Source of the DNA: a bacterium
GTDB taxonomy: Bacteria > Chloroflexota > Dormibacteria > Aeolococcales > Bog-877
Direction of reading: 5' to 3'
Assembly (NCBI GenBank): GCA_021791415.1
Contig: JAJYWQ010000064.1
Coordinates: 4,476-68,475, forward strand
Length of the DNA stretch: 64,000 bases
Shown: one piece after another, positions 7,344 to 44,446 of the stretch
How the letters are laid out: each line of letters opens with the position of its first letter
How positions within the stretch are numbered: position 1 is the first letter of the stretch
Made by a program: the position numbers and the translations under genes
The notes under the pieces: model-generated
Database searches by the model: none
Seen by the model: only the letters and a program-made list of their open reading frames with translations
What the model was told of the DNA's origin: nothing

Positions 7344-9296
7344 ATGGGACAAATCAAGTGGCCCACAGTCCTGCGACCACTCGGCGTTGCCGCCGGCGTG
7401 GTCCTCCTGCTGGCCGGATGCGGTGGAGCCGTGTCCAACCACCACACCACGACCGGCGGGGTGGTCACCTTCGCCGAGGGACCGAGCTCTCCGCCCAACT
7501 ACATCTTCCCGCTGGAGCCTTCTGCGGACTTCAGCGTCACCAACCTCAGCCAGTTCTCCTACGTGATGTATCCGCCGCTCTACTGGTTCGGGAACAACGG
7601 GCAGCCCACCTTCAACCCCGCGCTCAGCATCGCCAACGCCCCCACCTTCTCCGCCGGGGACACCGTGGTCAACATCACCCTCAAGCACTGGCAGTGGTCC
7701 AACGGCCACCCGCTCACCTCCCGGGACGTCATCTTCTGGCTGAACCTGCTCAGCGCCGCGACCGACCCCAACTCCCCGGCCATCGGCTCGCAGAGCGCCC
7801 CTGGTCCGGGATGGGGCGCCGAGGTGCCCGGCGGGTTCCCCTTCAACCTGGTCAGCTATGCCGCCACCGGGACCTACTCCCTGCAGCTGCACCTCAACGC
7901 CGCCTACAACCCCACCTGGTTTCTGTACAACGAGCTGAGCCAGATAACCCCCATGCCCCAGGCGGCCTGGGATGAGCTCTCGTCCTCGGGGCCGGTGGGC
8001 AACTACGACGCGGCCGCCGAGACCCGGGTTCCCCTGTCCGGCACCAGCCCCGCCCAGTACGTCCCCCAGGACCCGGGCACGGCCACCAGCGGCGCTCTCG
8101 GGGTTGCCCAGTTCCTCAACTCGCAGTCCCAAGAGGTCGGCACATACTCCAGCAATCCTCTCTGGCAGGTGGTGGACGGCCCCTTCCGGATCGCGGACTA
8201 CGCCTCCTCCGGATACGTCAAGTTCGTCCCCAACCGGGACTACTCGGGCTCGCCCAAGCCAACCATCTCAGCCTTCGTCGAGGAGCCGTTCACCTCGGAC
8301 ACCGCAGAGTTCGACGCCCTGGCGTCGGGCAGCCTGACGATGGGCTTCATCCCCAACCAGGACCTCTCCCAAAGGGCATCGCTGGAGCGCCGTTTCAACT
8401 ACTCCTTCCAGCCCTGGTACAACTTCGGGTTCACCTACTTCCCGTACAACTTCACCAACCCCGCGGTGGGGCCGATCTTCCGCCAGCTCTACTTCCGCCA
8501 GGCCTTCCAATCGCTGGTCAACCAGACCCAGTACATCAAGGACTTCTACCTCGGGTACGCCACGGTGACGGACGGACCGGTGCCGACCTACCCGGCCCAC
8601 AACCCGGACGAGAGCCCGCTTGAGGCCGGAACCCCACCCTACCCCTACAACCCCAGCCGGGCGGTGAGCCTGCTGCGGGACCACGGGTGGACCGTGGTCC
8701 CCGGCGGCACCAGCTACTGCTCCCGCCCGGGCGACGGGACCGGTGAATGTGGGCCGGGGATCTCCTCGGGAGAGAAGCTGCAGTTCAGCCTTCTCTACCA
8801 GAACGGGGTCGTGGTGCTCGCCAACCAGATGGAGGCCCTGCAGTCGGCGGCGCGCAGCGTGGCGGGGATCGATCTCACCCTCTCCACCGCCCCCTTCAGC
8901 CAGGTCCTGGCCACCGCCTTCAACGGTTGCACCATGGCCACTCCCTGCTCCGGATGGGAGCTGGCCAACTGGGGCGGCGGCTGGTCGTACGCCCCCGACT
9001 ACCTGCCCACCGGGGGTGAGCTGTTCGGCTGCGGCAGCACCAGCAACGCCGGCGATTGGTGCAACGCCACCACCCAAGCCAACATCGCCGCCACCCACAC
9101 CGCTCCCAACCAGGCGGCGGAGATTGCCGCCCTCTTCCGCTACCAGGACCAGCTGGCGCTGCAGCTCCCGGTGGTGTACACCCCGAGCGTCCCGATCGAC
9201 AACGAGTTGGTGATGTACAAGAGCTCTCTCCAAGGGGTGCTGCCGCTCGACCCCTTCGGCAACATCTACCCGCAGATGTACCGGTTCTCGAGCTGA
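7344..9296 (+). CDS. ABC transporter substrate-binding lipoprotein, family 5 (peptide/nickel/opine type)
   Basis: Track ORF 7311..9296. Signal peptide with lipobox LLLAGCGG. SBP_bac_5-like length (650 aa). No permease or ATPase genes adjacent. Confidence 0.8.
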   Translation: MGQIKWPTVLRPLGVAAGVVLLLAGCGGAVSNHHTTTGGVVTFAEGPSSPPNYIFPLEPSADFSVTNLSQFSYVMYPPLYWFGNNGQPTFNPALSIANAPTFSAGDTVVNITLKHWQWSNGHPLTSRDVIFWLNLLSAATDPNSPAIGSQSAPGPGWGAEVPGGFPFNLVSYAATGTYSLQLHLNAAYNPTWFLYNELSQITPMPQAAWDELSSSGPVGNYDAAAETRVPLSGTSPAQYVPQDPGTATSGALGVAQFLNSQSQEVGTYSSNPLWQVVDGPFRIADYASSGYVKFVPNRDYSGSPKPTISAFVEEPFTSDTAEFDALASGSLTMGFIPNQDLSQRASLERRFNYSFQPWYNFGFTYFPYNFTNPAVGPIFRQLYFRQAFQSLVNQTQYIKDFYLGYATVTDGPVPTYPAHNPDESPLEAGTPPYPYNPSRAVSLLRDHGWTVVPGGTSYCSRPGDGTGECGPGISSGEKLQFSLLYQNGVVVLANQMEALQSAARSVAGIDLTLSTAPFSQVLATAFNGCTMATPCSGWELANWGGGWSYAPDYLPTGGELFGCGSTSNAGDWCNATTQANIAATHTAPNQAAEIAALFRYQDQLALQLPVVYTPSVPIDNELVMYKSSLQGVLPLDPFGNIYPQMYRFSS

Positions 9297-9323
9297 CCGT
9301 CCCTCCCCCGCCCTTTAGTGCCC

Positions 9324-9381
9324 GCTCGCCCGCCCCCCTTGGCGGGCGAGCCTGGGGGCCCGGCCAGCTGGCCGGGCCCCC
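9324..9381 (+). terminator. two tandem GC-rich hairpins downstream of the SBP gene
   Basis: GCTCGCCCGCC-cccctt-GGCGGGCGAGC followed by the perfect palindrome GGGGGCCCGGCCAGCTGGCCGGGCCCCC. Confidence 0.5.
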
Positions 9382-9448
9382 TTGCGGCCCGGGCCGGCGG
9401 CTCGAGCCGCAGCTGAGTCCGCGCGGTCGGTCGAGCATCTCGACGCTG

Positions 9449-10363
9449 GTGCGGGCCAGACGCGCCCGGAGGCTCAGACTCTCACTCCAGCTCACTGAGG
9501 AGGGCTGGAGCCAGCGCCGGATCGCCGCCCACCTCGGCTTGGCCCGCGCCACCGTCCGGGGATACCTCGTGGCAGCGCGGCGCGCGGGGCTGGACGCGGC
9601 CTTGGCCGCCGCCCTGCCCGAGGCGGAGCTGCTCACCCTCATCGAGGCGACACGCCGGCTTGAGCCCTCGGCCCGTCCGGTCGGTGAGAACTTCGCGGAG
9701 GCACTATGGGAGCTGAAGGCCGACCCTCGAGCCACCCTCCGGTCGGTCTGGCTGCACCTCGGGGTCCGCGAGCGCTGGGGGGAGTCGCTGGCGGAGTTCT
9801 CGCATCGCTACCGGGCCTGGCTGGCGCGCCAGCCGGAGCTGGTCCGGCTCCCAGACCGTGCCGGCCAGCGCTTGGTGACCGGCGTGATCCCCGTCCCAGG
9901 GACCAGGGACCGCGAGCTGGTGCTCTTCGCCGCCCAGGTGGGAGCCAGCGGACTGCTGCTGTTGGAGATGGGAGAGGGCCTCGGGGAGGATGGCTGGCGA
10001 GTCTTCGTGAGCAGAGCGCTCGTCCGGCTGGGTGGAAGGCCGCTGAGGGCGGTGCTGCCCGCGGCCCTCGCCGGCCACGTCTTCGCCCAGCGGGTTTCCG
10101 GGGAGGTCCTGGGTTGCCAGATCGCTCCCCCCGACCCCCCGGCCGAGCGGGTGTTGCTGGCGCGGCTGGAGAAGGTGCGCGGGGACAGCTGGCCGGCCGA
10201 GCTCACCGGCGAGAGCGTTCCCGGGGAGGGGGTCCTGAGGCGTTGGGAGGATGAGGTGAACAGGCCCGCGCTCCCAGGGCTGGGGCAGTCGAGCCGTGAG
10301 CTCTTCGAACGGTTGGACCGAGGTCGCCTGCGCCCGCTGCGCTTCGGGCCCGACTCCGAGTAG
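9449..10363 (+). pseudogene. HTH-domain ORF, possible degenerate IS21-family (IstA-like) transposase remnant
   Basis: LTEEGWSQRRIAAHLGLARATVRGYL resembles the IstA N-terminal HTH. Downstream sequence has weak IstA-like stretches but no intact DDE motif. Start is guessed (GTG ~9449). Confidence 0.3.
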
Positions 10364-10404
10364 CGCCGGTCTGCCGCGGGACCGGTTCCCGCTATGGTCA
10401 TCCG

Positions 10405-11472
10405 GTGGCCCCGACCTCAGGACCGGAGACGTCCAGCTCCGAGGTCCGCTTCCTCTACCCCGACCTCTCAACCGAGCTGGCCGGGGTGGCCCTGTTCCAG
10501 GAGGTCTTCTGGCCCCGCTCCGGCCCGGAGCTGACCCGCACCAGGGAGGGGTTCTCAATCGTGGTGCCCCGTCCCCCGGTGGACCGGATGGAATACCTCT
10601 TCGAGCTCCGCCACCAGGACGGCAGCCGGCAGCTGGTCTGCGACCCCGGCAATCCGAAACGGGCCCCATCCCCGTTCGGGGACAAGTCAGTCCTGGAGTT
10701 TCCCGAGTATCACGCCCCGGATTGGTCGAGGGTGGCCGCCTACCCCCGCGGGGAGTCGGTCGACCTGGAGTTCGCCTGTCCGGGGCTGAACCTTTCGATG
10801 CCTGCCCGGATCTGGTCCCCGGCGGGAGTCAGCTCCGACCGGCGCCTCCCCCTCTTGCTGGCATTCGACGGCCTGGAGTACGACCTCTACTCCCAGCTCA
10901 CCCAGTTCTTCGACCACGAGGTGAACCGGGGAGACCTCCCCCTTTTTCGGGCGGCCCTCCTTCACCCGGTGCGGCGGGACCAGGACTACTCGGCGTCGCC
11001 GGGATTCACCAGGGTCCTCTCCGAAGAGGTGATCCCCCAGATCGAGCAGCTCATCCCCGTGCGGCCCGGCCCGGCCGGCCGGGTGGCGATGGGTGCCAGC
11101 CTGGGGGCGGTCGCCGCCCTGCACCTGCAGTGGGAGAGACCGGGGGCGGTGGGAGGGCTTCTGTTGCAGTCGGGCAGCTTCTTCAACCACCATTACTTCT
11201 CCCAGCAGCTGCCCTTCGACCCCGTGGAGCGGATCTGCATGTTCACCGAGCGCATCCACCAGGCTGCGGCCGCCGCCGCCCCCGTCCCCGCCGCCCTCAC
11301 CTGTGGGGTGGTTGAGGGAACCCTCCTGGCCAGCACGGCGATGGCCAGCTCACTGGGTCGGCTCCGGTACTCAGCCGAAGTCCACCGGCTCCGCGACGCC
11401 CACAACTGGGTGGCTTGGCGGGACGCCTTCGACCCGCACCTCAAGGATCTCCTCATCCGCGTATTCGGATGA
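10405..11472 (+). CDS. esterase-family protein (enterochelin esterase/Fes-like, with N-terminal beta domain)
   Basis: 355 aa. Architecture and motifs of PF00756-type putative esterases (AMGASLGAVAAL nucleophile elbow GxSxG). Confidence 0.65.
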   Translation: MAPTSGPETSSSEVRFLYPDLSTELAGVALFQEVFWPRSGPELTRTREGFSIVVPRPPVDRMEYLFELRHQDGSRQLVCDPGNPKRAPSPFGDKSVLEFPEYHAPDWSRVAAYPRGESVDLEFACPGLNLSMPARIWSPAGVSSDRRLPLLLAFDGLEYDLYSQLTQFFDHEVNRGDLPLFRAALLHPVRRDQDYSASPGFTRVLSEEVIPQIEQLIPVRPGPAGRVAMGASLGAVAALHLQWERPGAVGGLLLQSGSFFNHHYFSQQLPFDPVERICMFTERIHQAAAAAAPVPAALTCGVVEGTLLASTAMASSLGRLRYSAEVHRLRDAHNWVAWRDAFDPHLKDLLIRVFG

Positions 11473-11479
11473 ATCAGCT

Positions 11480-12220
11480 GTGAGAAGGGACGAGGCGTGG
11501 CTGGACGGGGGAGGCCTGGGCTGGCGGCGGGTGATCGCCCACGGCCACTACGGCCGCCCCTTCCTGTCCTTCCCGACCGACATGGGCGCGGCCACCGACT
11601 TCGAGGAGCGGGGGATGCTGGACTCGGTTGGGCAGCTGGTCGAGGAAGGCCGGGCAAAGATCTACTGTCTCGACAGCTTCGACCACTCCTCCTGGCGCAA
11701 CCCCGAGCTGTCGCTGGAGCAGCGGGCCCGAGCCCACCTCGCCTTCGAGGCCTTCGTCGTGGACCAGGTGGTCCCCTTCATCCACCGAGATTGCGGGGGG
11801 CCGCAGGAGGTGGGGGTCTTGGGATTCAGCTTCGGGGCCTTCCACGCGGCCAACTTCTGCCTCCGCCGCGCCGACCTCTTCCCCCTCTCCCTCTGCTTCT
11901 CCGGGGTGTACGACGTCTCGGTGGTGGGAGGGGGCTGGGAGCGCGGCGACACCGCCTACTTCAACAACCCCATGGACTACATGCAGAACGCCGAGGGCGC
12001 CCACCTGGACTGGTTGCGCCGGCGCTGCCGGCTGCTGCTGGTGTGCGGGCAGGGAGCCTTCGAGGACACCACCGGGGCCCTCCAATCCACTCGGGACTTC
12101 GCCGCCCTGCTCCAGACCAAGGGCCTTTCCTGCGAGCTCGACCTCTGGGGCTGGGACGTGCCTCACGACTGGCCTTCCTGGAGGGCCCAGCTGGCCCACC
12201 ACCTGCCCCGCTTCTGCTGA
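11480..12220 (+). CDS. esterase-family protein (PF00756-like), second tandem copy
   Basis: C-terminal ~246 aa of track ORF 11093..12220. GTG start ~11480 just after the upstream stop. LGFSFGAFHAANF serine-hydrolase motif. Confidence 0.6.
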   Translation: MRRDEAWLDGGGLGWRRVIAHGHYGRPFLSFPTDMGAATDFEERGMLDSVGQLVEEGRAKIYCLDSFDHSSWRNPELSLEQRARAHLAFEAFVVDQVVPFIHRDCGGPQEVGVLGFSFGAFHAANFCLRRADLFPLSLCFSGVYDVSVVGGGWERGDTAYFNNPMDYMQNAEGAHLDWLRRRCRLLLVCGQGAFEDTTGALQSTRDFAALLQTKGLSCELDLWGWDVPHDWPSWRAQLAHHLPRFC

Positions 12221-12225
12221 CGGGC

Positions 12226-13344
12226 TCAGCTCGGAAGTTGGCCCCGGACTCCCTGCATGGTCTCCGTCGCCAGCAGCTCCACCACCGCCGCCAGTGACCC
12301 CGTGCGACGGTAGGCGGCCAGCTGGCGGTCGGCACTGGTCCCCTCCCGGCAGATCTGGTGCAGGTACTCCACCTGGGCTCTGGACCCCAGCTCGTCCACA
12401 ACGTCGTCGACGAACTCCAGGAGCTCGACGGCCAGCTGGCGCATGGGCACCTCGGCGGCGCGGCCGAAGTCGATGAGCTGGCCGTCCAGCCCGTGGCGGA
12501 GAGCCCGCCACTTGTTCTCGGCGATGAGATTGGGCAGGTATTTGCGAAACCCCAGGTTCTGGCGGCGCAGCTTCACCAGCTTGGCGCAGATGGCCTGCAC
12601 CAACCCCGCCAGGCAGACCACCTCCTCGACCCGGGTGGCGGCGTCGCAGACCCGGAACTCCAGGGTGGGGTAGAGGACATGGGGGCGCAGGTCCCACCAG
12701 ATCTTCTTGCCGTTGTCGATGCAGCCGGTCCGGACCAGCAGCTCCAGGTAGTTCTCGAAGTCCTCCGGAGAGCTGAGCTCCGGCGGGATCCCGGTCCTCG
12801 GGAAGCGCGACCAGACCACGCTGCGGTAGCTCTTGAGACCGGTCTCCCGGCCCATCCAGAAGGGGCTTGAGGTGGAGATGGCGAGCAGGTGGGGGAGGAA
12901 GTAGCGGGCCTCGTTGGCCACCTCGATCCGCAGATCGGGGTCGGGGATGGCCACATGCACATGGAGCCCGAAGATCAGCAGTTCGCGGATCACGTCCTGC
13001 ATCTCCTCCTCCAGCACCTTGTAGCGCTCCAGGCGGGTGACCTCCTGCTCCTGCCAGCGGGAGAACGGGTGGGTGCCGGCCGAGACGATCCGCAGGCCGT
13101 GCGGCTCCAAGAGGTCGCTCACCGCTGACCGCAGCCGCACCACCTCGCGGTGGACCTCCAGGACGTCGGAGCAGATGGGGGTCGCCACCTCCACCACCGA
13201 CTGGAGCATCTCCGCCTTGACGTCGTCCCCGAGGCCGGGCCCGGCCTGCGCCAGGAGGGTCTCGATGTGGGATCGCAGGGCCCCCTCCCCATCCACGATC
13301 TGGAACTCCTCCTCCACCCCCAGGGTGAACCAGCGGGCGCTCAC
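12226..13344 (-). CDS. carboxylate-amine ligase, GCS2 family (YbdK / glutamate-cysteine ligase 2-like)
   Basis: Track ORF 12226..13596. Real start likely GTG at ~13344 (VSARWFTLGVEEEFQIVD, the canonical GCS2 N-terminus), preceded by a GAGGGGG SD. Its start overlaps the stop of the upstream gene (GTGA). Confidence 0.8.
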   Translation of the reverse strand: MSARWFTLGVEEEFQIVDGEGALRSHIETLLAQAGPGLGDDVKAEMLQSVVEVATPICSDVLEVHREVVRLRSAVSDLLEPHGLRIVSAGTHPFSRWQEQEVTRLERYKVLEEEMQDVIRELLIFGLHVHVAIPDPDLRIEVANEARYFLPHLLAISTSSPFWMGRETGLKSYRSVVWSRFPRTGIPPELSSPEDFENYLELLVRTGCIDNGKKIWWDLRPHVLYPTLEFRVCDAATRVEEVVCLAGLVQAICAKLVKLRRQNLGFRKYLPNLIAENKWRALRHGLDGQLIDFGRAAEVPMRQLAVELLEFVDDVVDELGSRAQVEYLHQICREGTSADRQLAAYRRTGSLAAVVELLATETMQGVRGQLPS

Positions 13345-14711
13345 ACGGCCCCCTCGACGACGAAGGCGGGGACCACGCTGCCCGCCCCCGCGGTGACGTT
13401 GAGGAGCGCGGACGAGGAGAGGCGGGTGAGGAGGCCGCCCACCCGCCCGTTGAAGAGGTAGGGGTCCATGTCCCGTCCCAGCTCCAGCTCCTGCACCGCA
13501 TCCCCCACCGCCACCGGGTAGCGGTCGCGAGGGACGGGAATCGCCTCCTGGACCACGTACGACTGGCTGAGCCCGACGGTGACGGCCTGCTCCCACTCGC
13601 GACGGCTAACCGTCCAGCCCAGGATGACCCCCTTGCCCCCGTACTCGTCGTTTGGCTTGAGTACCATCTCGCGCTGGTGGCTGGCCACGTGGTCGAGCAG
13701 GTCCGGCACCCGGCGCCCGTGCCGCTCGGTGGCCCCCTCCTGGAGTTTCCGGGTCCAGGGGACGTGGCGGGCGATGGCCTGCCGCTGCCGGGGGGTGTAG
13801 AGGTGCTGCCAGCGCGGGTCAGAGAGCAGGGCCAGGCTCATCTTCTTGTGCAGGAGCTTGGCCCTGAAGGAGTTGACCACGCAGACGGCGCCCTCCAGGT
13901 AGGCGGTGCAGAGCGGCTCGGCCGCCTCTCCCTCGGCCAGGAGCTCCGCCTCCAGGACTCGGCGGTAGACCAGGTTCACCACCTCACCCGAGGGACCGTG
14001 CAGCTCGCCTCTTGAAAACGCCAGCTCCGCCGGCTGGCAGATGATCGCCGGAACCCCCCGCCGGAGGAAGGCCTCGCGGAAGAGCTCGAACTCACCAAGG
14101 GTGGGCAGGCCGGCCCAGTCCACGATCGCCACCCGGGGCGGGGCCGTTCCCCCCCACGCCCGGTAGGCGGCCAGCATCACCTCCAGCTGGCGCTCGGCGC
14201 AGCGCAGGGGGCGGAGCCTGAACCGCTCCCGCAGGCGGAGCATGGCGGGCATCTCCCAGAAGACCCGGCTCAACTCGTCTCCGTAGGCCATGCCCGCCGG
14301 CGACTCGGCGTTGTACTCGACGTAGCCGATCTGCGGGGCGGCGAAGCTGTCCAGCCGTGAGCTGGGCGAGGAATGGGGATAGCCGGGATCCGCCAGCGCC
14401 AGCCGCTCCTCCTCGGGTCGGAGGTCCAGCTCTCCTCGGATCCCCTCGTCGGCGAGCAGCGCCGCCTCCAGCCGGGAGAGGGCCCCGAAGACCGCCTGGG
14501 CGGCCAGCTGGGCCGTCCGGTACTCGTCCCTGTTGATCAGCTCTGGGCGCAGCGAGACGCACAGGGGGTGCTGGCCGAAGTACAGCCCGCGCTCGAGCTG
14601 GCCCTCCCGCAGCCGCCCCAGGCTGTCCGCCAGGAGCTGGGGCTCCTCCAGCTGACGGTCGTACAGCTGCCGGGCGCGCCGAGCCGGGGTGGTGCTCAAA
14701 CGAAGCGCCAC
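13341..14711 (-). CDS. large ATP-grasp-like amidoligase (GspS-like / circularly-permuted ATP-grasp-like)
   Basis: 456 aa. ATP-grasp nucleotide-binding stretch MVLKPNDEYGGKGVILGW. Subfamily assignment is tentative. Confidence 0.55.
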   Translation of the reverse strand: MALRLSTTPARRARQLYDRQLEEPQLLADSLGRLREGQLERGLYFGQHPLCVSLRPELINRDEYRTAQLAAQAVFGALSRLEAALLADEGIRGELDLRPEEERLALADPGYPHSSPSSRLDSFAAPQIGYVEYNAESPAGMAYGDELSRVFWEMPAMLRLRERFRLRPLRCAERQLEVMLAAYRAWGGTAPPRVAIVDWAGLPTLGEFELFREAFLRRGVPAIICQPAELAFSRGELHGPSGEVVNLVYRRVLEAELLAEGEAAEPLCTAYLEGAVCVVNSFRAKLLHKKMSLALLSDPRWQHLYTPRQRQAIARHVPWTRKLQEGATERHGRRVPDLLDHVASHQREMVLKPNDEYGGKGVILGWTVSRREWEQAVTVGLSQSYVVQEAIPVPRDRYPVAVGDAVQELELGRDMDPYLFNGRVGGLLTRLSSSALLNVTAGAGSVVPAFVVEGAV

Positions 14712-15634
14712 CAGCGGTGAGCGCCGCGCCAGGGCGGAGCCAGCTCGCCGGTCGCGTATCCGATCACCAGCTGGGTCATCTTGGAGAGGACCCAGTCGAA
14801 ACCCGCCTCCTTGATGGAGAAACGGTCGAAGTCCGGGGCGGGGTTCAGGAAGTCGATGGCGTAGAGCACGCCGTCCCGGACAGCGAACTCCACGGTGTCC
14901 ACGTCGTACCCCAGGGCGTCGGTCAGGGTGCGCGCCTGCACCGCTGCCAGCTCGCAGAGCGCGTGGGACGGCGGGTCGTCGGTGACATAGCGCTCCAAAA
15001 AGGGCCGGTGGGGGTCGTAGCGAAACACCAGGACCTCACCCCCGATGACGATGCAGCGGAGGTAGTCCTGCCACTGGATCCGCTCCTGCAGGATCATGGT
15101 CTTGGTCCCGGTCCGGTCGTAGGCCGAGATCAGCTCCTCTCGGGAGTCGATCATGTACACATCCCGCCAGCCCCCGCCGGTGTTGGGCTTGAGGACCGCG
15201 GGCAACCCGGTGTAAGCGAGGATTCCCTCCCAGTCCAGCGGATACTCCAGGTTGCGCAGGGAGCGCTGGGGCTCGATGTAGGGGATGTATTCCTTGTTGG
15301 GCAGGACCACCGTCCGGGGGACCGCCACCCCCAGGCGGCGCGCCAAGGTGCACTCGAAGAACTTCTCGTCCGCCTCCCACCAGAAGGGGTCGTTGATCAC
15401 GGCGGTCCCCTGGAGGGCCGCGCTCTTGAGATAGGCGCGGTAGAAGGGGACCTCGTGGGAGATGCGGTCGACGATCACCTGGTAGCGCTGCCGGTCCTCA
15501 AGTTCGCGAGCCCCTCCCAGCCGGCACATCTCGGCCACGACCCCATGGGCCCGGCCTCGCTCGTTAACCAGCGAGATGAAGGGCTCGGGAAAGGTGTTCT
15601 CGACCCCGACCAAGAGCCCGACCCTGGCCTCCAT
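14696..15634 (-). CDS. ATP-grasp domain protein (RimK/glutathione-synthetase-like)
   Basis: 312 aa. LPAVLKPNTGGGWRDVYMIDSREEL ATP-grasp signature. AGGGGGA SD upstream of the ATG. 16-bp overlap with the next gene. Confidence 0.7.
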   Translation of the reverse strand: MEARVGLLVGVENTFPEPFISLVNERGRAHGVVAEMCRLGGARELEDRQRYQVIVDRISHEVPFYRAYLKSAALQGTAVINDPFWWEADEKFFECTLARRLGVAVPRTVVLPNKEYIPYIEPQRSLRNLEYPLDWEGILAYTGLPAVLKPNTGGGWRDVYMIDSREELISAYDRTGTKTMILQERIQWQDYLRCIVIGGEVLVFRYDPHRPFLERYVTDDPPSHALCELAAVQARTLTDALGYDVDTVEFAVRDGVLYAIDFLNPAPDFDRFSIKEAGFDWVLSKMTQLVIGYATGELAPPWRGAHRWWRFV

Positions 15635-15979
15635 CCTCGGTCCCCCTGCAACGGCTCCGGGCGCACTCTGGCACCGTCAGCGCCACCATAGGGGAGGGGG
15701 CGCCTGCTGGCAATAGGCAGGCCGGCCGAGGTTGACCGGGCCTACCCCTTGCACCCCGGCCCAGGGTGGGTCTATGGTATTGCCTACTCAAGTAGGGTGG
15801 AGTGCCACACCAGTGCCCTTTTCCGTTCGGATGCCAGCGACACCGCGGCCGTGAGGCGCGTCGGCGGCACCGGCGGGAGGCTCCGGGCGGCGCCACCCGG
15901 GAGCGGCGGGGCTGTCTCCCCGGCGGAGGACTGGGGCGCCCTATCGGGTGCCCGGGCGCAGCGACATGGAGGGACGGAG

Positions 15980-17266
15980 ATGCGTAAAGCCCTGGTCTTG
16001 CCCCTGGTGGGGGTGATGGCGGTGGTTGCCGGTTGCGGCTCCACCGCCTCCACTGGAAAGGCGATCAAACCCGGGCCGATCAACATCGGGGTGATAGCCC
16101 CGTTCAGCGGGCCGGCGGCTGAGTTCGGCACCCTGATCTCCGCGCCCTGCTACGCCGCCAGCGACCTCATCAACCAGGCCGGAGGGATTCTGGGTCACAA
16201 GGTCCAGTGCACCCCCGTGGACGACACCGGGGACCCGGCTGACGCTGTTCCCAACGTGACCCGAGCCATCGCCACCATCTCCAACTTCGACCTCGCGGTG
16301 GGGTTGGAGACCAACACCGCCGCGACCACCGTGCCCCTGGTCAATCGCGCCCAGATCAACATGGTGACCACCAACGGGCTCACCAACTACGACACCACCA
16401 CCGACAAGTACTTCTGGCGGCTCACCCCGGCCGACGACGCCAACGGAGCGGCGATGGTGCAGTACGCCTACAACCGGGGATACAAGCGGATCGCCGTGGT
16501 CTTCGAGAACAACTCCACCGACACCGGCAACACCCCAGGGATCGAGAAGGCGGCGGCCAAGCTGGGGGTGAAGCTGGTTACCAACACCACGATCCCCGCC
16601 GACGCCAGCTCCTACTCCAGCGTCGCCTCCACCGTGATCAGCCTGCACCCCCAGGCGATCATCTTCGACGCCGACCCCCAGTCCACCGCGACCTTCCTCT
16701 CCAACTACTCGCAGCTCACCGGGGGCAAGCTGCCCCCGATGATCACCGCCACCGACTCCCTGACCCCGGACTGGTACAACGCCGTCTCCGCGGCGGTGGG
16801 CACCGGCTTCATCTTCAACAAGGTGGACCTGGTCGGCTCCTACTTCAGCACCAGCACCCAGGCGTTCTACACCTACCGCAACGCCCTGCTGGCCAACCCC
16901 AAGACCCACGCCTTGGCCGACACCCTGGCCACGGTCGGGCCCCCCGCCTCGATCTACGACGGGATCAACATCATGGCCCTGGCCATGCTGATGGCCAAGA
17001 GCGCCGACCCCACCGTCTACAACGCCTACGTCAACGACGTGGTGACCCCCAAGGCGGGCGCGGTGGTGGTCGACACCTTCGCGGCCGGCAAGAAGGCCCT
17101 CAGCGAGGGAAAGAAGATCCAGTACGTGGGGGTCCTCGGCCCGGTCACCTTCAACAAGTACCACAACTTCGCCGGTGCCTTCGCGGCCGCCAGGTTCACC
17201 GGGTCGACCACCTCGGTCAACGCGGCGATCATGCCCGGGTCGGAGATCTCTAAGCTGCTCGGCTAG
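15980..17266 (+). CDS. ABC transporter substrate-binding lipoprotein (LivK/branched-chain amino acid family)
   Basis: Track ORF 15749..17266. Start at ATG ~15980 (MRKALVLPLVGVMAVVAGCGS, lipobox) with a GGAGGGACGGAG SD. Type-I periplasmic binding fold. Confidence 0.85.
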   Translation: MRKALVLPLVGVMAVVAGCGSTASTGKAIKPGPINIGVIAPFSGPAAEFGTLISAPCYAASDLINQAGGILGHKVQCTPVDDTGDPADAVPNVTRAIATISNFDLAVGLETNTAATTVPLVNRAQINMVTTNGLTNYDTTTDKYFWRLTPADDANGAAMVQYAYNRGYKRIAVVFENNSTDTGNTPGIEKAAAKLGVKLVTNTTIPADASSYSSVASTVISLHPQAIIFDADPQSTATFLSNYSQLTGGKLPPMITATDSLTPDWYNAVSAAVGTGFIFNKVDLVGSYFSTSTQAFYTYRNALLANPKTHALADTLATVGPPASIYDGINIMALAMLMAKSADPTVYNAYVNDVVTPKAGAVVVDTFAAGKKALSEGKKIQYVGVLGPVTFNKYHNFAGAFAAARFTGSTTSVNAAIMPGSEISKLLG

Positions 17267-17278
17267 TTCCTGACTCTT

Positions 17279-17307
17279 GCCGGGGGCGGGCCGGGCCCGC
17301 CCCCGGC
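17279..17307 (+). terminator. GC hairpin between SBP and permease genes (attenuator/partial terminator)
   Basis: CCGGGGGCGGGCC-gg-GCCCGCCCCCGG immediately after the SBP stop. Confidence 0.4.
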
Positions 17308-17327
17308 TCATCTACAAGGAGGCCTTG

Positions 17328-18215
17328 GTGCATCTGCTGGTCCAATCCATCGGGTTCGGTGTCGCCGCCGGGGCAGTGCTGGCGCTGGGGGCGGTCGGCT
17401 TCACCCTCCAGTTCGGGATCAGCAACGTCCTCAACATCAGCTATGGGTCTCTGATGAGCGTGGGTGCCTTCCTGGGGCTCTTCATGCTGGGTCTGGGCTT
17501 GAACATCTGGCTGGTGATGGTGATCGGCGGACTGGCGGTGGGCGCCTGCTCGGTCGTCCTCAACCGGGGGCTCATCACCCCACTGGTGCGCAAGGGGATG
17601 GCCCCCTTCGGCCTGGTGATCGTCACCGTCTCCGCCGGGATCGTCCTGGAGTATGTGATCGTGGCTGTGGCCGGGCCCGCCACCCAGACCTACGGGAACC
17701 GCAGCGGGGCCACCCTCAACTTCCTGGGATGGACCCTGACCACCGCCCAGGTGGTGATCTTCGCCATCACCGTGGTCCTCATGCTGGGCCTGCACCTGCT
17801 CCTGACCCGCACCCAGCTGGGAAGGGCGATGCGGGCCACCTCCGCCAATCGAACCCTGGCTCGCAGCTGCGGCATCGCCACCTCCCGGATCAGCGACATC
17901 GCCTGGTTCATGTCAGGGACCTTCTGCGGGATGGCGGGCATCGCCCTGGCCATCACCATCGAGTCCTTCGACTTCACCCTTGGATCGATCTTCCTCATCC
18001 CCATGATCGCCGCGGCGGTGCTGGGCGGGGTCGGTCAGCCCTACGGGGCGATGATCGGTGGGATGGTGGTGGGGATCGTGAGCTCGGTCTCCTCCGCCTA
18101 CTGGGACCCCGCCTATCAGAGCGTGGTCGCCTTCGGGATCATCATCGTGATGCTTCTGGTCAGGCCGCGCGGGCTATTCGGCAGCGCGACCGCCACCCGC
18201 AAGCTGCTGGCATGA
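17328..18215 (+). CDS. ABC transporter permease (LivH type)
   Basis: Track ORF 17277..18215. GTG ~17328 preceded by an AAGGAGG SD. Polytopic membrane protein with LivH-like sequence. Confidence 0.85.
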   Translation: MHLLVQSIGFGVAAGAVLALGAVGFTLQFGISNVLNISYGSLMSVGAFLGLFMLGLGLNIWLVMVIGGLAVGACSVVLNRGLITPLVRKGMAPFGLVIVTVSAGIVLEYVIVAVAGPATQTYGNRSGATLNFLGWTLTTAQVVIFAITVVLMLGLHLLLTRTQLGRAMRATSANRTLARSCGIATSRISDIAWFMSGTFCGMAGIALAITIESFDFTLGSIFLIPMIAAAVLGGVGQPYGAMIGGMVVGIVSSVSSAYWDPAYQSVVAFGIIIVMLLVRPRGLFGSATATRKLLA

Positions 18216-37897: not shown

Positions 37898-38197
37898 CAG
37901 CGGTACATGGTGCCGGCCAGGGCTTCGTTCGAGGGCTGATCAGGGCCAGCTACCGGCTACTCCCGCACGGGGCCACTGAACGGCGGGTCGGGCCGCCCAC
38001 GACCAAGGGTAGGCGATGGACGGCGGGCCTCACCGCCAGTGCTGCGGTGCCCGGAGTGGGCTCATTCCCAGAGCGACCCGGGTAGCTGCCCCTTAGTCTC
38101 GGAACCGCCCCTGGTCAGGTGCGCCCTGAGGCTTCCCATCAGACTCCAGGCAGGACCTCGAAGCCTGGGGCGAGCGCCCCGGGGCGACTCCACCGCC

Positions 38198-38683
38198 TCA
38201 ACCGGTAGGCCGTCTCGTCGAGGGCGGGGCGAGCCAGCCCGGCGCATCGACACGCACGGGCGACGGGCCGACCAGTGCCGTCAGGTCAGCCTCAAGGCGC
38301 TCGAGCTCTTTGGTCCCGATCTTCTGCTTCCACTTGTCACGCAGTTCGTCGAAGACGGCTTCTCCTGCTCGCATGACTTCGAAGCCGAGCGCCGTGACCT
38401 CGAGGCGTTTCCGACGGACGTCGAGCGGATCAGGCTCCCGCGCCACGTAGCCGCGCTCCTCGAGAACCGCCACCGTCTTTGCCGCCGCTTGCTTGGAGAC
38501 CGACAGACGGCGACCCAGTTCCGAAGCGTTGTCGGCGCCCGCCGCGATGGCCCGCATTGTGAAGTCATGGACGGGGCGCACGTCTTCGTATCCGCGCTTG
38601 GTGAGCTCCACGATCGCATCGTCTACCAGGGCTCGGAACCCTCCGAGAAGGAGCAGGGCGAGATCGGCGCCCGAGCGTGACAT
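38198..38683 (-). CDS. MarR-family transcriptional regulator
   Basis: 161 aa, winged-HTH MarR architecture. Divergent from the hydrolase gene. Confidence 0.85.
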   Translation of the reverse strand: MSRSGADLALLLLGGFRALVDDAIVELTKRGYEDVRPVHDFTMRAIAAGADNASELGRRLSVSKQAAAKTVAVLEERGYVAREPDPLDVRRKRLEVTALGFEVMRAGEAVFDELRDKWKQKIGTKELERLEADLTALVGPSPVRVDAPGWLAPPSTRRPTG

Positions 38684-38707
38684 GGAGTGGATCGTAAGGC
38701 AGACACC

Positions 38708-38754
38708 TTGACAAGGTCAACCTAGTTGTCTATTATGTGGACAACTAGGTTGAC
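38708..38754 (+). promoter_or_regulatory. promoter (TTGACA-N17-TATTAT) overlapped by a perfect 15-bp inverted-repeat operator
   Basis: GTCAACCTAGTTGTC (38716-38730) - 9 bp - GACAACTAGGTTGAC (38740-38754). TTGACA at 38708-13 and TATTAT at 38731-36. Confidence 0.55.
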
Positions 38755-38772
38755 GATTGCAGGGAGATTGGC

Positions 38773-39660
38773 ATGACCTTGATTGCCGAGCGGGCGACAC
38801 TGACCGGAGTCACGCACCATTACGCCAAGGTCAACGGGACCGAGCTGCACTACGTGGCGGCGGGCACTGAAGGAACTCCGGTTCTGCTGGTCCATGGCTT
38901 TCCCGAGACCTGGTGGACCTTCCGCCAGCTCATCCCCCTGCTTGCCGCCAGCCACCGTGTTTATGCCGTAGACCTGCGCGGGTTCGGTGACTCCGACCAT
39001 GGGTCAGACGACTACGGAAGCAAGTCCGCCGCCGATGACCTGCACCTTCTGATTGGAGAGCTCGAAGTTGGCCCAGTGCACCTCACCGGTCAGGACATCA
39101 GCGGGACAACTGTCGTGCGTCTCGCCGCCACGCACCCCGAAGATGTGCTCGGCCTGACTGCCATCGAGATGGGCCTACCCGGGTTCGGCCTGGAGATGCT
39201 GGCCGACGTCACACGCGGGGGCACCTGGTACATCGGCGTCCTTGCCGCCCCCGGGATCCCCGAGATACTCCTCGCCGGTCGCGAGCGCGAGTTCCTTGGT
39301 CGGGTCGCCTTTCGGGCTACGAGCGCGACCGCGGGAGCGATCACCGACACCGACATCGACGAATTCGTCCGCGCCTACTCTCGTCCCAATGGCTGGTGCG
39401 GAGCGGTCGGCCTCTATCAGTCCATGCTCCAAGAAGGCGCCGAGATCAGGGCCCTCGTATTGGACCACAAGCTGAAGGTCCCGGTTCTGGCGATCGGAGC
39501 TGCGGGCGGCGAGTTCACCTTCGCAACGATGAGCCAGGTCAGTTCCAGTCCTGTCCGATCGGTGATTCTCGCAGGCGTCGGCCACTACGCAGCCCTGGAG
39601 GCACCCGACCAGGTGGCGCACGCTCTTCTCGACTTCTTCAGCTTTGTTGACGCCAGCTGA
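38773..39660 (+). CDS. alpha/beta hydrolase (epoxide hydrolase/haloalkane dehalogenase-like)
   Basis: 295 aa. HGFPETWWTFRQ and GQDISG nucleophile elbow. Confidence 0.8.
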   Translation: MTLIAERATLTGVTHHYAKVNGTELHYVAAGTEGTPVLLVHGFPETWWTFRQLIPLLAASHRVYAVDLRGFGDSDHGSDDYGSKSAADDLHLLIGELEVGPVHLTGQDISGTTVVRLAATHPEDVLGLTAIEMGLPGFGLEMLADVTRGGTWYIGVLAAPGIPEILLAGREREFLGRVAFRATSATAGAITDTDIDEFVRAYSRPNGWCGAVGLYQSMLQEGAEIRALVLDHKLKVPVLAIGAAGGEFTFATMSQVSSSPVRSVILAGVGHYAALEAPDQVAHALLDFFSFVDAS

Positions 39661-40198
39661 ACAGTGGGTCTGCCTCCGGGACCACCCACCCGAACCTGCG
39701 AATTCGAAAGCGCTCCGACAGCTCGCCCGCAGGGTACGTCCGGCCGTCGAGCTGGCGCCATCGGGCGCCCGAAGGCTCCGGACGGGCGGGCAGCTCCCCC
39801 ACCCCCGCTGTGCCAGCTCCTACGTAGGCGTAAGTCTGGACTAGTGAGAGGCGCTGGGTGCGGGCTCGCCCTTTACCCGTGGCCGTGAGCCGTGGAGCGA
39901 GAGAAGGGTGTTCAGCCTGCGAGCTTCTGCCGGGTGGTGAGCTGCCGCCTCCAGCACGCACCTCTCGACCCAGATCCCTTGGCTCATCAGGCTTTCTCAC
40001 CACCGCTACCGCCTCGCCTTGGCGGTTCGTTGCAATATCAGGATCGGAGATCGCCCGATGGGCCAGAGGGCCCTCAAAGTCGATCTGTGATCCCATCTCA
40101 CAGCTGCGGTGGCGCCGAGTCCGGCCAGAGCCGTCGGGATCGGCCACCACCACCCCTCGGCCCGCAAGCAACGCTCGACCTCCTGGGTGGAATTCGCC

Positions 40199-40843
40199 TC
40201 AGGTTTTCGCTCGAGCAGCCCGAGCGCCGGGCGGCCCGACCGGTCCGATTGTGCGGCTGACAATCCACGCATGCTTTCCGACCTGCCGGATGCGAGCGAA
40301 CCCAAACTCCTCGAAAAGCTCGACGGTCCCGCTGAACAGGAAGCGCCCCTGGGCCTCGCGGCCCGCGGTCGTCTCGGAGATCGCCTCGACAAGCCCGCCA
40401 CCTTCAGCCGCGATCTCGGCGAGAGCGCCCTCAAGCGCGGCTCGGGCGACTCCCAGTGCACGATGGTGCTTGTCGACAAAGATGCAGGCGATCCGCCACC
40501 TCGCCTCGGGTGGCGGATCTTTCGCATACTCGCGGGCGTGCTTCAGGTGAAGCTCGTCCGGACTGCCGTATTGGCACCAGCCCTGGACCTTACCGTACGC
40601 GTCGATAGCCAGCGCGGCCTGCGCCCGACCCTCTCGGACGAGCTGCTCTTTGAGCGTTCGCGGATCGCTCACGCCACGTCGGTACTCGACGTGGTTGGGA
40701 GCGCACCAGCACCCGCCGTAGATGCCGTTGTTGCGCTCCACGAGGTCGGCGAATGCGTCCCAGGTGGCTGCTTCGAGCCGGGCAATCGTGTAGGACCCAG
40801 CGGTCGCTGCTGCCGATCGGTCGCTCTCAGGCACTGGCGACAC
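40199..40843 (-). CDS. GNAT-family N-acetyltransferase
   Basis: C-terminal part of track ORF 40199..40975. GNAT motif A (HHRALGVARAAL). Start approximate. Confidence 0.55.
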   Translation of the reverse strand: MSPVPESDRSAAATAGSYTIARLEAATWDAFADLVERNNGIYGGCWCAPNHVEYRRGVSDPRTLKEQLVREGRAQAALAIDAYGKVQGWCQYGSPDELHLKHAREYAKDPPPEARWRIACIFVDKHHRALGVARAALEGALAEIAAEGGGLVEAISETTAGREAQGRFLFSGTVELFEEFGFARIRQVGKHAWIVSRTIGPVGPPGARAARAKT

Positions 40844-40994
40844 GGTGCAAGAGGTCGGCCAGCTCGGGCGGTGCTCCCTGTCCTGGGAGAGAGAGCGCGA
40901 CGGGTCGGTGGCCCAGGTCCCGGAGGGGTGGAACGACACCGTCCCAGGCGGACCCGTCGAGCCAGAGACCGGCACTGAGAAGGATGTCCGTCAT

Positions 40995-42104: not shown

Positions 42105-42201
42105 GTAGGCGGCCGAGGCACCTATGCTCCTGACGAGCCGCAGTTGTGGCGCCGCCCTGTGACGCCTCGGGACCGGTCCTCGGTCGGACAAAGGAATTGA
42201 G

Positions 42202-42795: not shown

Positions 42796-42797
42796 AC

Positions 42798-44432: not shown

Positions 44433-44446
44433 GACAAGGAGAGTCG

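What the first reader, a model, noticed from the sequence alone, without database searches (positions are those of the whole stretch)
12226..15634. Translationally coupled operon of three different ATP-dependent amidoligases (GCS2/YbdK-type + large ATP-grasp-like + RimK-like ATP-grasp) with no recognisable substrate, precursor or pathway context
Three consecutive minus-strand genes each encode a distinct carboxylate-amine ligase fold.
- 14696-15634: ATP-grasp, LKPNTGGGWRDVYMIDS.
- 13341-14711: 456 aa, MVLKPNDEYGGKGVILGW, GspS-like or circularly-permuted ATP-grasp-like.
- 12226-13344: GCS2 with the canonical LGVEEEF N-terminus.

The junctions overlap by 16 bp and by GTGA. A single strong SD (AGGGGGA) precedes the first gene, so they are co-translated as one unit. 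None of the usual partners is present: no egtB/egtD (ergothioneine), no mshC/gshB-like thiol genes, no F420 cofE context, no RiPP precursor or alpha-E/transglutaminase genes.

Comparative-genomic work on amidoligases has predicted that such multi-ligase sets build peptide-like metabolites or add amino-acid tails to proteins. This particular triad with these neighbours is not a described pathway that I recognise. The two convergent Fes-like esterases (10405-12220) end 5 bp from the triad and could hydrolyse or recycle the product. This is the best candidate in the window for an undescribed biosynthetic or peptide-tagging system.
Basis: partly seen in the sequence, partly recalled or inferred. 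Interest (0 to 1): 0.8.

Follow-up and report, generated by a model that had tools for sequence, protein, structure and literature searches.

The report
Conserved three-ligase plus hydrolase peptide cassette
Three overlapping genes for different ATP-dependent amide-bond ligases, together with one or two serine hydrolases, form a gene cassette that recurs in hundreds of soil-bacterial species; it most likely builds a small glutamate-derived peptide whose identity nobody has determined.

Summary
Three minus-strand genes (15634-14696, 14711-13341, 13344-12226) overlap at both junctions. They encode a classical ATP-grasp ligase, a circularly permuted ATP-grasp ligase of the glutathione-synthetase/glutathionylspermidine-synthetase fold class, and a YbdK-type GCS2 ligase.

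The triad is not peculiar to this genome. In 80 loci from several phyla (Dormibacterota, Chloroflexota, Actinomycetota and others), gene order is kept almost without exception. An alpha/beta-hydrolase related to the window's second esterase accompanies it in 65 of 72 informative loci. So the esterases belong to the unit.

No precursor or carrier ORF is conserved in cis, and no known thiol, F420 or RiPP pathway fits. From memory, this neighbourhood is the one described in silico for Pfam CP_ATPgrasp_2 (Iyer et al. 2009) as a predicted small-peptide synthesis system. No product is known, and NCBI calls the middle protein 'hypothetical'.

New lead: DinB-superfamily genes, whose characterised members are thiol S-transferases, are translationally coupled to the ligase genes in several lineages. 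A gamma-glutamyl hydrolase-type peptidase sits nearby in another. This hints at a gamma-glutamyl, possibly thiol, metabolite.

Verdict: a real, uncharacterised, widely conserved system, and a new member of a kind already predicted.

The parts
15685..15713 (-). sigma-70-like promoter match (TTGCCA-17-TATGGT) about 50 nt upstream of the first ligase gene, in the 344-bp divergent intergenic region
   Evidence: the only promoter-like match in 10000-16200 (0.2 expected from shuffles). It is a consensus match only, not shown to function.
15641..15647 (-). Shine-Dalgarno-like AGGGGGA, 6 nt before the ATG at 15634
   Evidence: read directly from the sequence.
14696..15634 (-). 312-aa classical ATP-grasp ligase with LysX/ArgX/RimK/Ddl-like fold; first gene of the triad
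   Evidence: no Pfam hit; TIGR00768 rimK_fam 28.5 bits against a cutoff of 143.: AF2 pLDDT 83.8; Foldseek to ArgX 3vpb 1.8e-12 (TM 0.64-0.71) and to RimK and Ddl.: invariant K149, G153-G155, E184, E249, D261 and N264, consistent with an intact ATP/Mg site. Median 69% identity across 76 loci.
13341..14711 (-). 456-aa circularly permuted ATP-grasp ligase (CP_ATPgrasp_2 type; glutathione synthetase / GspS / YgiC fold class); second gene
12226..13344 (-). 372-aa YbdK-type GCS2 carboxylate-amine ligase (glutamine-synthetase fold); third gene
   Evidence: PF04107 222.5 bits; NF010039 502 bits (cutoff 371); TIGR02050 299 bits (cutoff 176).: E. coli YbdK 1r8g 1.2e-48. GhExE signature GVEEE at the N-terminus (signature as defined in PMC2588565).
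11480..12220 (+). 246-aa alpha/beta-hydrolase ('est2'; GFSFG nucleophile motif, C-terminal HDWPxW); convergent, its stop lies 5 bp from the GCS2 stop. This is the conserved hydrolase partner of the cassette.
   Evidence: PF00756 25.5 bits (gathering score 22); Peptidase_S9 20.2 bits (weak).: weak match to an S9-type glutamyl endopeptidase.: a homolog accompanies the triad in 65 of 72 loci with room, upstream on the same strand in 54 and convergent downstream in 11. Gene start as called in L081.
10405..11472 (+). 355-aa Fes-like esterase ('est1'); present only in the convergent-type architecture (window lineage and Actinomycetota)
   Evidence: PF00756 36.7 bits.: NF007758 enterochelin esterase 61 bits (cutoff 222).: Fes structures 3mga and 2b20 about 1e-5.: est1 lies next to est2 in 10 loci.

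Best explanation
This is a self-contained, NRPS-independent peptide-assembly cassette. It combines three ATP-dependent carboxylate-amine ligases of different folds with a dedicated serine alpha/beta-hydrolase.

Most likely mechanism (inferred, not shown):
1. The GCS2/YbdK-type enzyme phosphorylates a carboxylate, typically the gamma-carboxylate of glutamate in this superfamily, and joins it to an amino acid.
2. The circularly permuted ATP-grasp activates the C-terminal carboxylate of that small peptide and adds a further amino acid or amine. Its characterised structural relatives do this kind of step: glutathione and homoglutathione synthetases, GspS, trypanothione synthetase, and the peptide-spermidine ligases YgiC/YjfC.
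3. The classical ATP-grasp adds one more residue or a short tail.
4. The hydrolase trims, releases or recycles the product.

The order of steps and the substrates are unknown. The product would be a cytoplasmic tri- or tetrapeptide-like metabolite, probably gamma-glutamyl-containing. Overlapping stop/start codons suggest the three ligases are made together.

The cassette belongs to the CP_ATPgrasp_2 / GCS2 / alpha-beta-hydrolase neighbourhood that comparative genomics already predicted to make small peptides (my recollection of Pfam PF14403 and Iyer et al. 2009).
For: Shown:
- Folds and intact catalytic motifs of all three ligases.
- Both junctions overlap.
- Order grasp, then CP-grasp, then GCS2 in 71/71 and 55/58 informative loci across several phyla. 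The hydrolase is present in 65/72.
- Flanking genes differ between lineages, so the cassette is the conserved unit.
- No conserved 18-110-aa ORF lies in or around the cassette, and there is no Rfam hit. A gene-encoded substrate in cis is therefore unlikely.
- The PDB structures that match the middle enzyme's fold class best are small-molecule or peptide ligases (PMC12568646).
- Distant paralogs on plasmids sit in small-molecule cluster-like contexts.
- Accessory genes point to a gamma-glutamyl or thiol-type small molecule. DinB-superfamily genes overlap the ligase genes by 1-4 nt in L019, L029, L031, L056 and L068. Peptidase_C26 lies next to the cassette in Acidimicrobiia-type loci.

Established knowledge:
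- GCS2 enzymes ligate the gamma-carboxylate of Glu (PMC2588565).
- Linked ligases commonly act successively (PMC4431377).
Against: - No substrate, product or reaction order is shown.
- The physiological substrate of YbdK-type GCS2 enzymes is unknown, and this one fails the thresholds of validated gamma-Glu-Cys ligase families.
- The 312-aa enzyme's nearest structural relatives (LysX, ArgX, RimK) act on protein C-termini, which fits a protein-tagging reading as well.
- Sequence conservation is high for a secondary-metabolite pathway (about 69% for two of the ligases across phyla).
- Many of the loci come from MAGs, so some phylum assignments may be binning errors.
Confidence: 0.6

Rival explanations
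1. A specific version of the main reading: the cassette makes a previously unknown low-molecular-weight thiol, a gamma-Glu-Cys-derived tri- or tetrapeptide or a peptide-amine conjugate. GCS2 would act as the gamma-Glu-Cys ligase. The glutathione-synthetase-fold enzyme would extend it, and the third ligase would cap it. The PF00756-family hydrolase (the Pfam family with which the first reader compared these genes as 'Fes-like') would act as a thioesterase or peptidase on its conjugates. DinB-type enzymes would use the product as cofactor.
For: - Top structural relatives of the 456-aa enzyme are glutathione, homoglutathione, glutathionylspermidine and trypanothione synthetases.
- The GCS2 family includes gamma-Glu-Cys ligases, and YbdK has that activity in vitro (title of Lehmann et al. 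2004, cited).
- Four different DinB-superfamily genes occur in or next to the cassette in three phyla, three of them with overlapping stop/start codons.
- DinB_2 was found in 18/69 cassette-adjacent ORFs against at most 2/150 distant ORFs.
- The characterised DinB/STL members reviewed in PMC10950700 are mycothiol and bacillithiol S-transferases.
- Peptidase_C26 lies next to the cassette in one lineage.
Against: - Counting each DinB family once, the enrichment is only suggestive (Fisher p 0.006-0.055).
- DinB genes are numerous in these phyla (own knowledge), and not all DinB proteins are thiol enzymes.
- The window itself has no DinB gene at the cassette.
- The GCS2 protein is below threshold for the validated GshA (TIGR02048, 61.6 against 249) and EgtA (26 against 371) models.
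- The cassette also occurs in Actinomycetota, a phylum in which mycothiol is the usual thiol (own knowledge).
- Cp1B and YgiC/YjfC show that the fold class is not restricted to thiol substrates.
Confidence: 0.2
2. A protein- or peptide-tagging or carrier system. The ligases would add amino acids to the C-terminus or a side chain of a protein encoded elsewhere, as RimK does on S6 or LysX/ArgX on LysW. The hydrolase would remove the tag.
For: - The 312-aa enzyme's best structural matches are ArgX, LysX and RimK, all of which act on protein C-terminal glutamates.
- GCS2 is the closest relative of the Pup ligase PafA (PMC2588565).
- The high cross-phylum conservation (69%) is typical of housekeeping protein-directed enzymes.
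Against: - No conserved small ORF (LysW-, Pup- or precursor-like) lies in or near the cassette in 80+ loci.
- The middle enzyme's fold class matches small-molecule or short-peptide ligases in the PDB searches.
- No proteasome, AAA+ or other tag-reader genes are linked.
Confidence: 0.12
3. A catabolic or detoxifying conjugation route rather than biosynthesis. Amines or xenobiotics would be gamma-glutamylated or peptidylated by the ligases, as in the Puu pathway, and then released by the hydrolase.
For: - Peptidase_C26, a gamma-glutamyl hydrolase-type family (PuuD is a member, by my recollection), lies next to the cassette in L008, L010, L021 and L084.
- Amino-acid and peptide ABC transporter genes flank the cassette in the window.
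- DinB transferases act in detoxification.
Against: - Three successive ligases are not needed for a conjugation-based catabolic route.
- Transporter neighbours are not conserved outside the window's close relatives.
- No oxidase or dehydrogenase steps typical of such routes are conserved.
Confidence: 0.06
4. The genes are dispersed parts of a characterised pathway (glutathione, mycothiol, ergothioneine, F420 glutamylation, graspetide), or are adjacent by chance.
For: Some source annotations of homologs of the 312-aa protein read 'glutathione synthase' or 'RimK family alpha-L-glutamate ligase'.
Against: - All specific family models fail their cutoffs: RimK 28.5/143, LysX 21/276, EgtA 26/371, GshA_cyano 62/249, MvdC 15/425.
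- No egtB/D, msh or cofE genes are in the neighbourhood.
- The strict conservation of order excludes chance.
Confidence: 0.02

Closest known systems
CP_ATPgrasp_2 (Pfam PF14403) neighbourhood predicted by Iyer, Abhiman, Burroughs & Aravind 2009 (Mol Biosyst 5:1636). As I recall the Pfam entry: prototyped by Roseiflexus RoseRS_2616, linked to a GCS2-like COOH-NH2 ligase, an alpha/beta-hydrolase peptidase, a GAT-II amidohydrolase and an M20 peptidase, and predicted to make small peptides.
   Same: - Same middle enzyme family: orthologs carry PF14403.
- Same partners, GCS2 and alpha/beta-hydrolase.
- Roseiflexaceae and Chloroflexia loci L073, L079 and L080 have the same cassette.
   Different: - The window protein itself scores below the Pfam gathering threshold (25.8 against 32).
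- The constant presence of the extra classical ATP-grasp, the DinB link and the Fes-like second esterase are, as far as I know, not part of that description.
- GAT-II and M20 partners were not seen here. A class-I GATase-type Peptidase_C26 and an M28 peptidase were seen in some lineages.
Glutathione biosynthesis (GshA + GshB/eukaryotic GS) and its extensions (glutathionylspermidine/trypanothione synthetases)
   Same: - Same logic: a glutamine-synthetase-fold ligase followed by ATP-grasp ligase(s).
   Different: - No sequence-level membership. There are no GSH_synth or GSP_synth Pfam hits, and PDB profile search finds only 3n6x at E = 0.003.
- The GCS2 enzyme is YbdK-type, not a validated GshA.
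- There is a third ligase and a dedicated hydrolase.
- The product is unknown.
CP_ATPgrasp_1 / Alpha-E / transglutaminase / Anbu peptide-tagging system (e.g. 3n6x, Mfla_0391 family)
   Different: - Alpha-E, transglutaminase-like and Anbu genes are absent.
- The partners are different: GCS2, a classical ATP-grasp and an alpha/beta-hydrolase.
E. coli YbdK (PDB 1r8g), carboxylate-amine ligase with weak gamma-Glu-Cys ligase activity
   Same: - Same family: TIGR02050 above cutoff, and 1r8g at 1.2e-48.
- GhExE motif is present.
   Different: - To my knowledge E. coli ybdK is not in such a cassette.
- The physiological role of YbdK itself is unknown.
RimK / LysX / ArgX ATP-grasp ligases
   Same: Best structural matches of the 312-aa enzyme.
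   Different: - Far below family cutoffs.
- No S6- or LysW-like substrate gene is linked.
- It has a distinctive, invariant Trp-rich C-terminus (PPWRGxHRWW).

Membership tests
CP_ATPgrasp_2 (PF14403) small-peptide synthesis neighbourhood | Middle enzyme matches the PF14403 model | tested here: inconclusive
   The window protein scores 25.8 bits, E = 6e-6, below the gathering score of 32. Many orthologs at 57-66% identity carry precomputed PF14403.
CP_ATPgrasp_2 (PF14403) small-peptide synthesis neighbourhood | Circularly permuted ATP-grasp fold | tested here: met
CP_ATPgrasp_2 (PF14403) small-peptide synthesis neighbourhood | Gene-neighbourhood link to a GCS2-like ligase and an alpha/beta-hydrolase | tested here: met
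   GCS2 lies downstream in 55/58 loci, and the hydrolase is present in 65/72.
CP_ATPgrasp_2 (PF14403) small-peptide synthesis neighbourhood | Orthology with the prototype Roseiflexus RoseRS_2616; published description of the system | not testable with these tools
   The paper (PMC3268129) and the Pfam comment are not available here. Roseiflexaceae MAG loci L073 and L080 do carry the cassette at 42-46% identity.
YbdK-type GCS2 carboxylate-amine ligase | Scores above the curated cutoffs of PF04107, TIGR02050 and NF010039; GhExE motif | tested here: met
   222.5 bits against 21; 299 against 176; 502 against 371. GVEEE is present.
Validated glutamate-cysteine ligases (GshA cyanobacterial/plant type TIGR02048; EgtA TIGR03444) | Score above the equivalog cutoff | tested here: not met
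   61.6 against 249, and 26.2 against 370.8.
RimK family (TIGR00768) / LysX (TIGR02144) | Score above the family cutoff | tested here: not met
   28.5 against 143.4, and 21.3 against 275.6. The similarity is at fold level only.
Glutathione synthetase / glutathionylspermidine synthetase families | Sequence-model membership (GSH_synth_ATP, GSP_synth) | tested here: not met
   Pfam reports no such hit at E<=0.01. A profile search of PDB sequences finds no GS or GspS even at E<=10. The fold class is shared.
Graspetide / RiPP ATP-grasp systems | Adjacent precursor peptide gene | tested here: not met
   No small ORF is conserved across lineages in or within 700 bp of the cassette. All recurrent small ORFs were shadows of flanking genes. 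MvdC model: 15 bits against 425.
CP_ATPgrasp_1 / Alpha-E / transglutaminase tagging system | Linked Alpha-E and transglutaminase-like genes | tested here: not met
   These genes are absent from the called genes of L081, L083 and L084 and from the window.
Enterochelin esterase Fes (NF007758) | Score above the equivalog cutoff (tested on est1) | tested here: not met
   61.4 bits against 222. Weak PDB matches at about 1e-5.

The most novel reading that the evidence does not exclude
The cassette is the biosynthetic pathway for an undiscovered low-molecular-weight thiol or related gamma-glutamyl redox cofactor. This would be a glutathione analogue built by a YbdK-type ligase, a glutathione-synthetase-fold ligase and a third ATP-grasp. 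It would be used by operon-coupled DinB-type transferases in Chloroflexota (Limnocylindria), Dormibacterota and some Actinomycetota, which include abundant soil lineages whose thiol chemistry is, to my knowledge, largely unexplored.
Probability: 0.2. Interest if true: 0.85.

Novelty: new member of a known kind. Interest (0 to 1): 0.55.

Why it matters
A four- to five-gene cassette is kept in strict order in hundreds of species of mostly uncultured soil phyla. Two of its ligases are about 69% identical across phyla. Yet it has no known product, and NCBI annotates the 456-aa ligase only as 'hypothetical protein'.

Identifying the product would give the CP_ATPgrasp_2 family and this YbdK-type GCS2 subfamily their first assigned physiological function. 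E. coli YbdK itself still lacks one.

If the DinB and glutathione-synthetase-fold clues are right, the work could also reveal a new cellular thiol or cofactor. The cassette is compact (3.4 kb for the ligases, 5.2 kb with the hydrolases), so it is directly testable by heterologous expression.

Tried and rejected
- Literature. Searches for 'circularly permuted ATP-grasp', GCS2, YbdK, CP_ATPgrasp_2, RoseRS_2616 and YbdK+ATP-grasp+esterase found no paper on this cassette. The key 2009 paper is not held. The graspetide phylogenomics paper does not mention these families.\n- Rfam scan of 9000-17500: only one sub-threshold chance hit.\n- Small-ORF search for a precursor or carrier: only frame shadows of neighbouring genes.\n- Wider conserved neighbours in Limnocylindria (RsmI-like methylase, pyrophosphatase, NAD synthase, nitrilase, EamA, M28 peptidase). 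These look like lineage synteny of housekeeping genes, not partners.\n- Fusion proteins as Rosetta stones. P0397 (793 aa) has an unrelated N-terminal region that is not the 312-aa ligase. P0410 combines partial CP-grasp and partial GCS2 and may be an artefact.\n- A sequence-level link to glutathione synthetase was not found, even at E<=10.\n- The afdb50 fold library was unavailable.\n- My first crude ORF caller mis-merged genes and was replaced. It still calls antisense shadows (clusters 4 and 10), which I ignored.\n- The plasmid collection holds only about 25%-identical paralogs, not the cassette.

Full report
**1. Observation**

The three minus-strand ORFs are where the finding says, and the quoted peptide motifs are present.

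- The first gene starts at the ATG at 15634. AGGGGGA lies at -13 to -7, and the only sigma-70-like promoter match of the region lies about 50 nt upstream (TTGCCA-17-TATGGT, 15713-15685).
- Its TGA (14698-14696) is overlapped by the second gene. The overlap is 16 nt if that gene starts at the GTG at 14711. It is a TTGA-type 2-nt overlap if it starts at the in-frame TTG at 14699. No other start lies before the conserved region.
- The second and third genes overlap as GTGA (13344-13341). GAGGGGG lies about 6 nt before the third start, so the upstream SD is not the only one.
- The two plus-strand esterase genes are 10405-11472 and 11480-12220. The second starts at the GTG at 11480, giving 246 aa, as called in the 94%-identical relative. 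It ends 5 bp from the GCS2 stop.

**2. What the proteins are**

*Third gene (372 aa).* It is an unambiguous YbdK-type GCS2 ligase.
- PF04107 scores 222.5 bits, TIGR02050 scores 299 (cutoff 176), and NF010039 scores 502 (cutoff 371).
- E. coli YbdK (1r8g) matches at 1.2e-48, and the GhExE motif GVEEE is present.
- It fails the models for validated gamma-Glu-Cys ligases: GshA_cyano 62 against 249, and EgtA 26 against 371.

*Middle protein (456 aa).* It is a circularly permuted ATP-grasp of the glutathione-synthetase/GspS class, at fold level.
- It hits Pfam CP_ATPgrasp_2 only below threshold (25.8 against 32). Orthologs at about 60% identity carry that domain.
- Its AlphaFold model is confident (pLDDT 87.4, pTM 0.88).
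- Foldseek ranks human, yeast and plant glutathione and homoglutathione synthetases first (5e-17; TM up to 0.72). Then come 3n6x, fungal Cp1B, GspS and YgiC/YjfC.
- Invariant E132-x-N134, K352-P-N-D-E356-Y-G-G and R430 are consistent with an intact ATP/Mg/acyl-phosphate site.
- No sequence-level membership in the GS or GspS families could be shown.

*First protein (312 aa).* 'RimK-like' is true of the fold, not of family membership.
- It has no Pfam hit and is far below the RimK and LysX cutoffs.
- Its model (pLDDT 83.8) matches ArgX, LysX, RimK and Ddl.
- The usual ATP-grasp residues are invariant.

*The esterases.* Both are PF00756-family serine hydrolases with GxSxG motifs.
- est1 is weakly Fes-like.
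- est2 is weakly similar to S9 peptidases.

**3. Comparative genomics**

*Spread of the family.*
- The middle protein has more than 5,400 homologous 90%-identity clusters among the candidates scored.
- It has 1,007 clusters at 50% identity with E<=1e-30.
- Relatives occur in at least 596 GTDB species representatives.
- The window's nearest relatives are unclassified 'bacterium' MAGs (93-94%) and then Candidatus Dormibacterota MAGs (66-76%).

*Conservation in the 80 fetched loci* (Dormibacterota, Chloroflexota including Limnocylindria, Anaerolineae and Roseiflexaceae, Actinomycetota, and contigs binned to Acidobacteriota, Gemmatimonadales, Udaeobacter and Eisenbacteria):
- The classical ATP-grasp lies immediately upstream in 71/71 loci with room.
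- GCS2 lies downstream in 55/58 loci with room.
- An est2-type hydrolase is present in 65/72.

| Protein | Median identity to the window protein |
|---|---|
| 312-aa ATP-grasp | 69% |
| 456-aa CP ATP-grasp | 57% |
| GCS2 | 69% |

*Two architectures exist.*
- Type A (54 loci): hydrolase, then grasp, then CP-grasp, then GCS2, all co-directional.
- Type B (11 loci, including the window's relatives and Actinomycetota): the three ligases, followed by convergent est2 and est1.

Genes beyond the cassette differ between lineages. The unit is therefore the three ligases plus the hydrolase. NCBI annotates the middle protein as 'hypothetical protein'.

**4. Substrate clues**

- No small ORF is conserved in or around the cassette, and no RNA family is found. 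A cis-encoded precursor or carrier is unlikely.
- DinB-superfamily genes recur inside or next to the cassette in four forms:
  - a 275-aa DinB_2 protein overlapping the GCS2 stop by 1-4 nt in 14 Limnocylindria-type loci;
  - a 165-195-aa DinB_2 protein inserted between CP-grasp and GCS2, with 4-nt overlaps on both sides in L031 (also present in L023 and L047);
  - a DinB_2-SnoaL protein overlapping the GCS2 stop in a Dormibacterota locus (L019);
  - an MST-family protein after CP-grasp in an Actinomycetota locus (L005).
- Pfam scans found DinB_2 in 18/69 cassette-adjacent ORFs, against at most 2/150 size-matched ORFs further away. Fisher's test gives p = 2e-8. Because related genomes are not independent, I also counted each protein cluster once. 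That gives 4/41 against at most 2/103, p = 0.006-0.055. The result is suggestive, not proven.
- The characterised DinB/STL members reviewed in PMC10950700 are metal-dependent mycothiol and bacillithiol S-transferases.
- In Acidimicrobiia-type loci a Peptidase_C26 gene (a gamma-glutamyl hydrolase-type family) lies divergently upstream.
- Distant plasmid paralogs of the middle enzyme sit in small-molecule cluster-like contexts.

**5. Mechanism**

The best-supported reading is successive ATP-dependent ligations that build a small cytoplasmic peptide-like metabolite.
- The chain probably starts from a gamma-glutamyl bond. This follows from GCS2 chemistry (PMC2588565), from the fold class of the middle enzyme, and from the general pattern of linked ligases (PMC4431377).
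- The hydrolase would act on the product.
- The order of steps, the substrates and the hydrolase role are all inferred.

A thiol (glutathione-analogue) product is the most interesting specific version (about 0.2). Protein tagging (about 0.12) remains open, because the first ligase resembles LysX, ArgX and RimK and because conservation is unusually high.

**6. Relation to known systems and novelty**

None of the characterised pathways fits: glutathione, ergothioneine, mycothiol, F420 tail, graspetides, or the Alpha-E/transglutaminase system (membership table).

To my recollection, the Pfam entry for CP_ATPgrasp_2 and Iyer et al. 2009 describe this neighbourhood as a predicted small-peptide synthesis system. 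As I recall it, the family is prototyped by Roseiflexus RoseRS_2616 and linked to a GCS2-like ligase and an alpha/beta-hydrolase peptidase. I could not retrieve the text. Roseiflexaceae loci do carry the same cassette.

The window's locus is therefore a new member of a kind already predicted in silico, with no experimentally known function.
- the strict universality of the extra classical ATP-grasp;
- the two hydrolase architectures;
- the fold-level tie to glutathione-type synthetases;
- the operon-coupled DinB genes.

**Verdict.** The feature is real and conserved, its product is unknown, and it is directly testable.

Noticed in passing
window 41027-42058 (-), within 38000-45000: An intact-looking IS630-type transposase gene (DDE_3 126.7 bits plus HTH_33 and HTH_32) lies inside a stretch of lower G+C (0.65-0.67 against about 0.70 elsewhere). 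It may mark a recently acquired segment.
   Followed up: partly
window 9449-10363 (+): An ORF with HTH domains and weak similarity to the N-terminus of IS21 transposases (50 bits, cutoff 160) lies between the SBP_bac_5 gene and est1. Its counterpart in the 94%-identical relative (L081 14349-15110) has no Pfam hit. It is either a degenerate IS fragment or a small regulator, and it is not conserved with the cassette elsewhere.
   Followed up: partly
L031 8353-8940 and 10061-10885; L019 6440-7348; L005 8486-9073; L056 9887-10723: DinB-superfamily genes (DinB_2, MST, DinB_2-SnoaL) are inserted in or appended to the ligase operon. Except in L005, they overlap the neighbouring gene by 1-4 nt. This occurs in three phyla and may link the cassette to thiol-dependent chemistry.
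   Followed up: yes
L084 5425-6866 (also L008, L010, L021): A Peptidase_C26 gene (gamma-glutamyl hydrolase-type family) overlaps a 210-aa gene with no family hit. The pair lies divergently upstream of the cassette in Acidimicrobiia-type genomes. A second, shorter GCS2 gene lies 7 kb away in L084.
   Followed up: partly
L042 8314-8838; L056 8251-8769: A 172-174-aa membrane protein (two TM segments plus a PH-like region; weak PuhB-like hit at 37.6 bits) is inserted between the CP-grasp and GCS2 genes with 4-nt overlaps.
   Followed up: no
L085 (B. thuringiensis plasmid pSCG364, 14561-19838): Two tandem paralogs of the 456-aa ligase, about 25% identical to it and annotated 'glutathionylspermidine synthase family', follow an AMP-binding enzyme and precede a MATE exporter. 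A cyclodipeptide synthase/P450 pair lies nearby. This looks like an uncharacterised small-molecule gene cluster.
   Followed up: no
protein P0410 (692 aa, from the representative search): A single ORF combines partial CP_ATPgrasp_2 and partial GCS2 domains. It is either a natural fusion of the two cassette ligases or a frameshift/assembly artefact.
   Followed up: partly
window 14696-14760 (C-terminus of the 312-aa ligase): An invariant Trp-rich C-terminal motif (PPWRGxHRWW) is conserved across phyla and absent from RimK, LysX and Ddl. It may be a docking element for the partner ligases.
   Followed up: no
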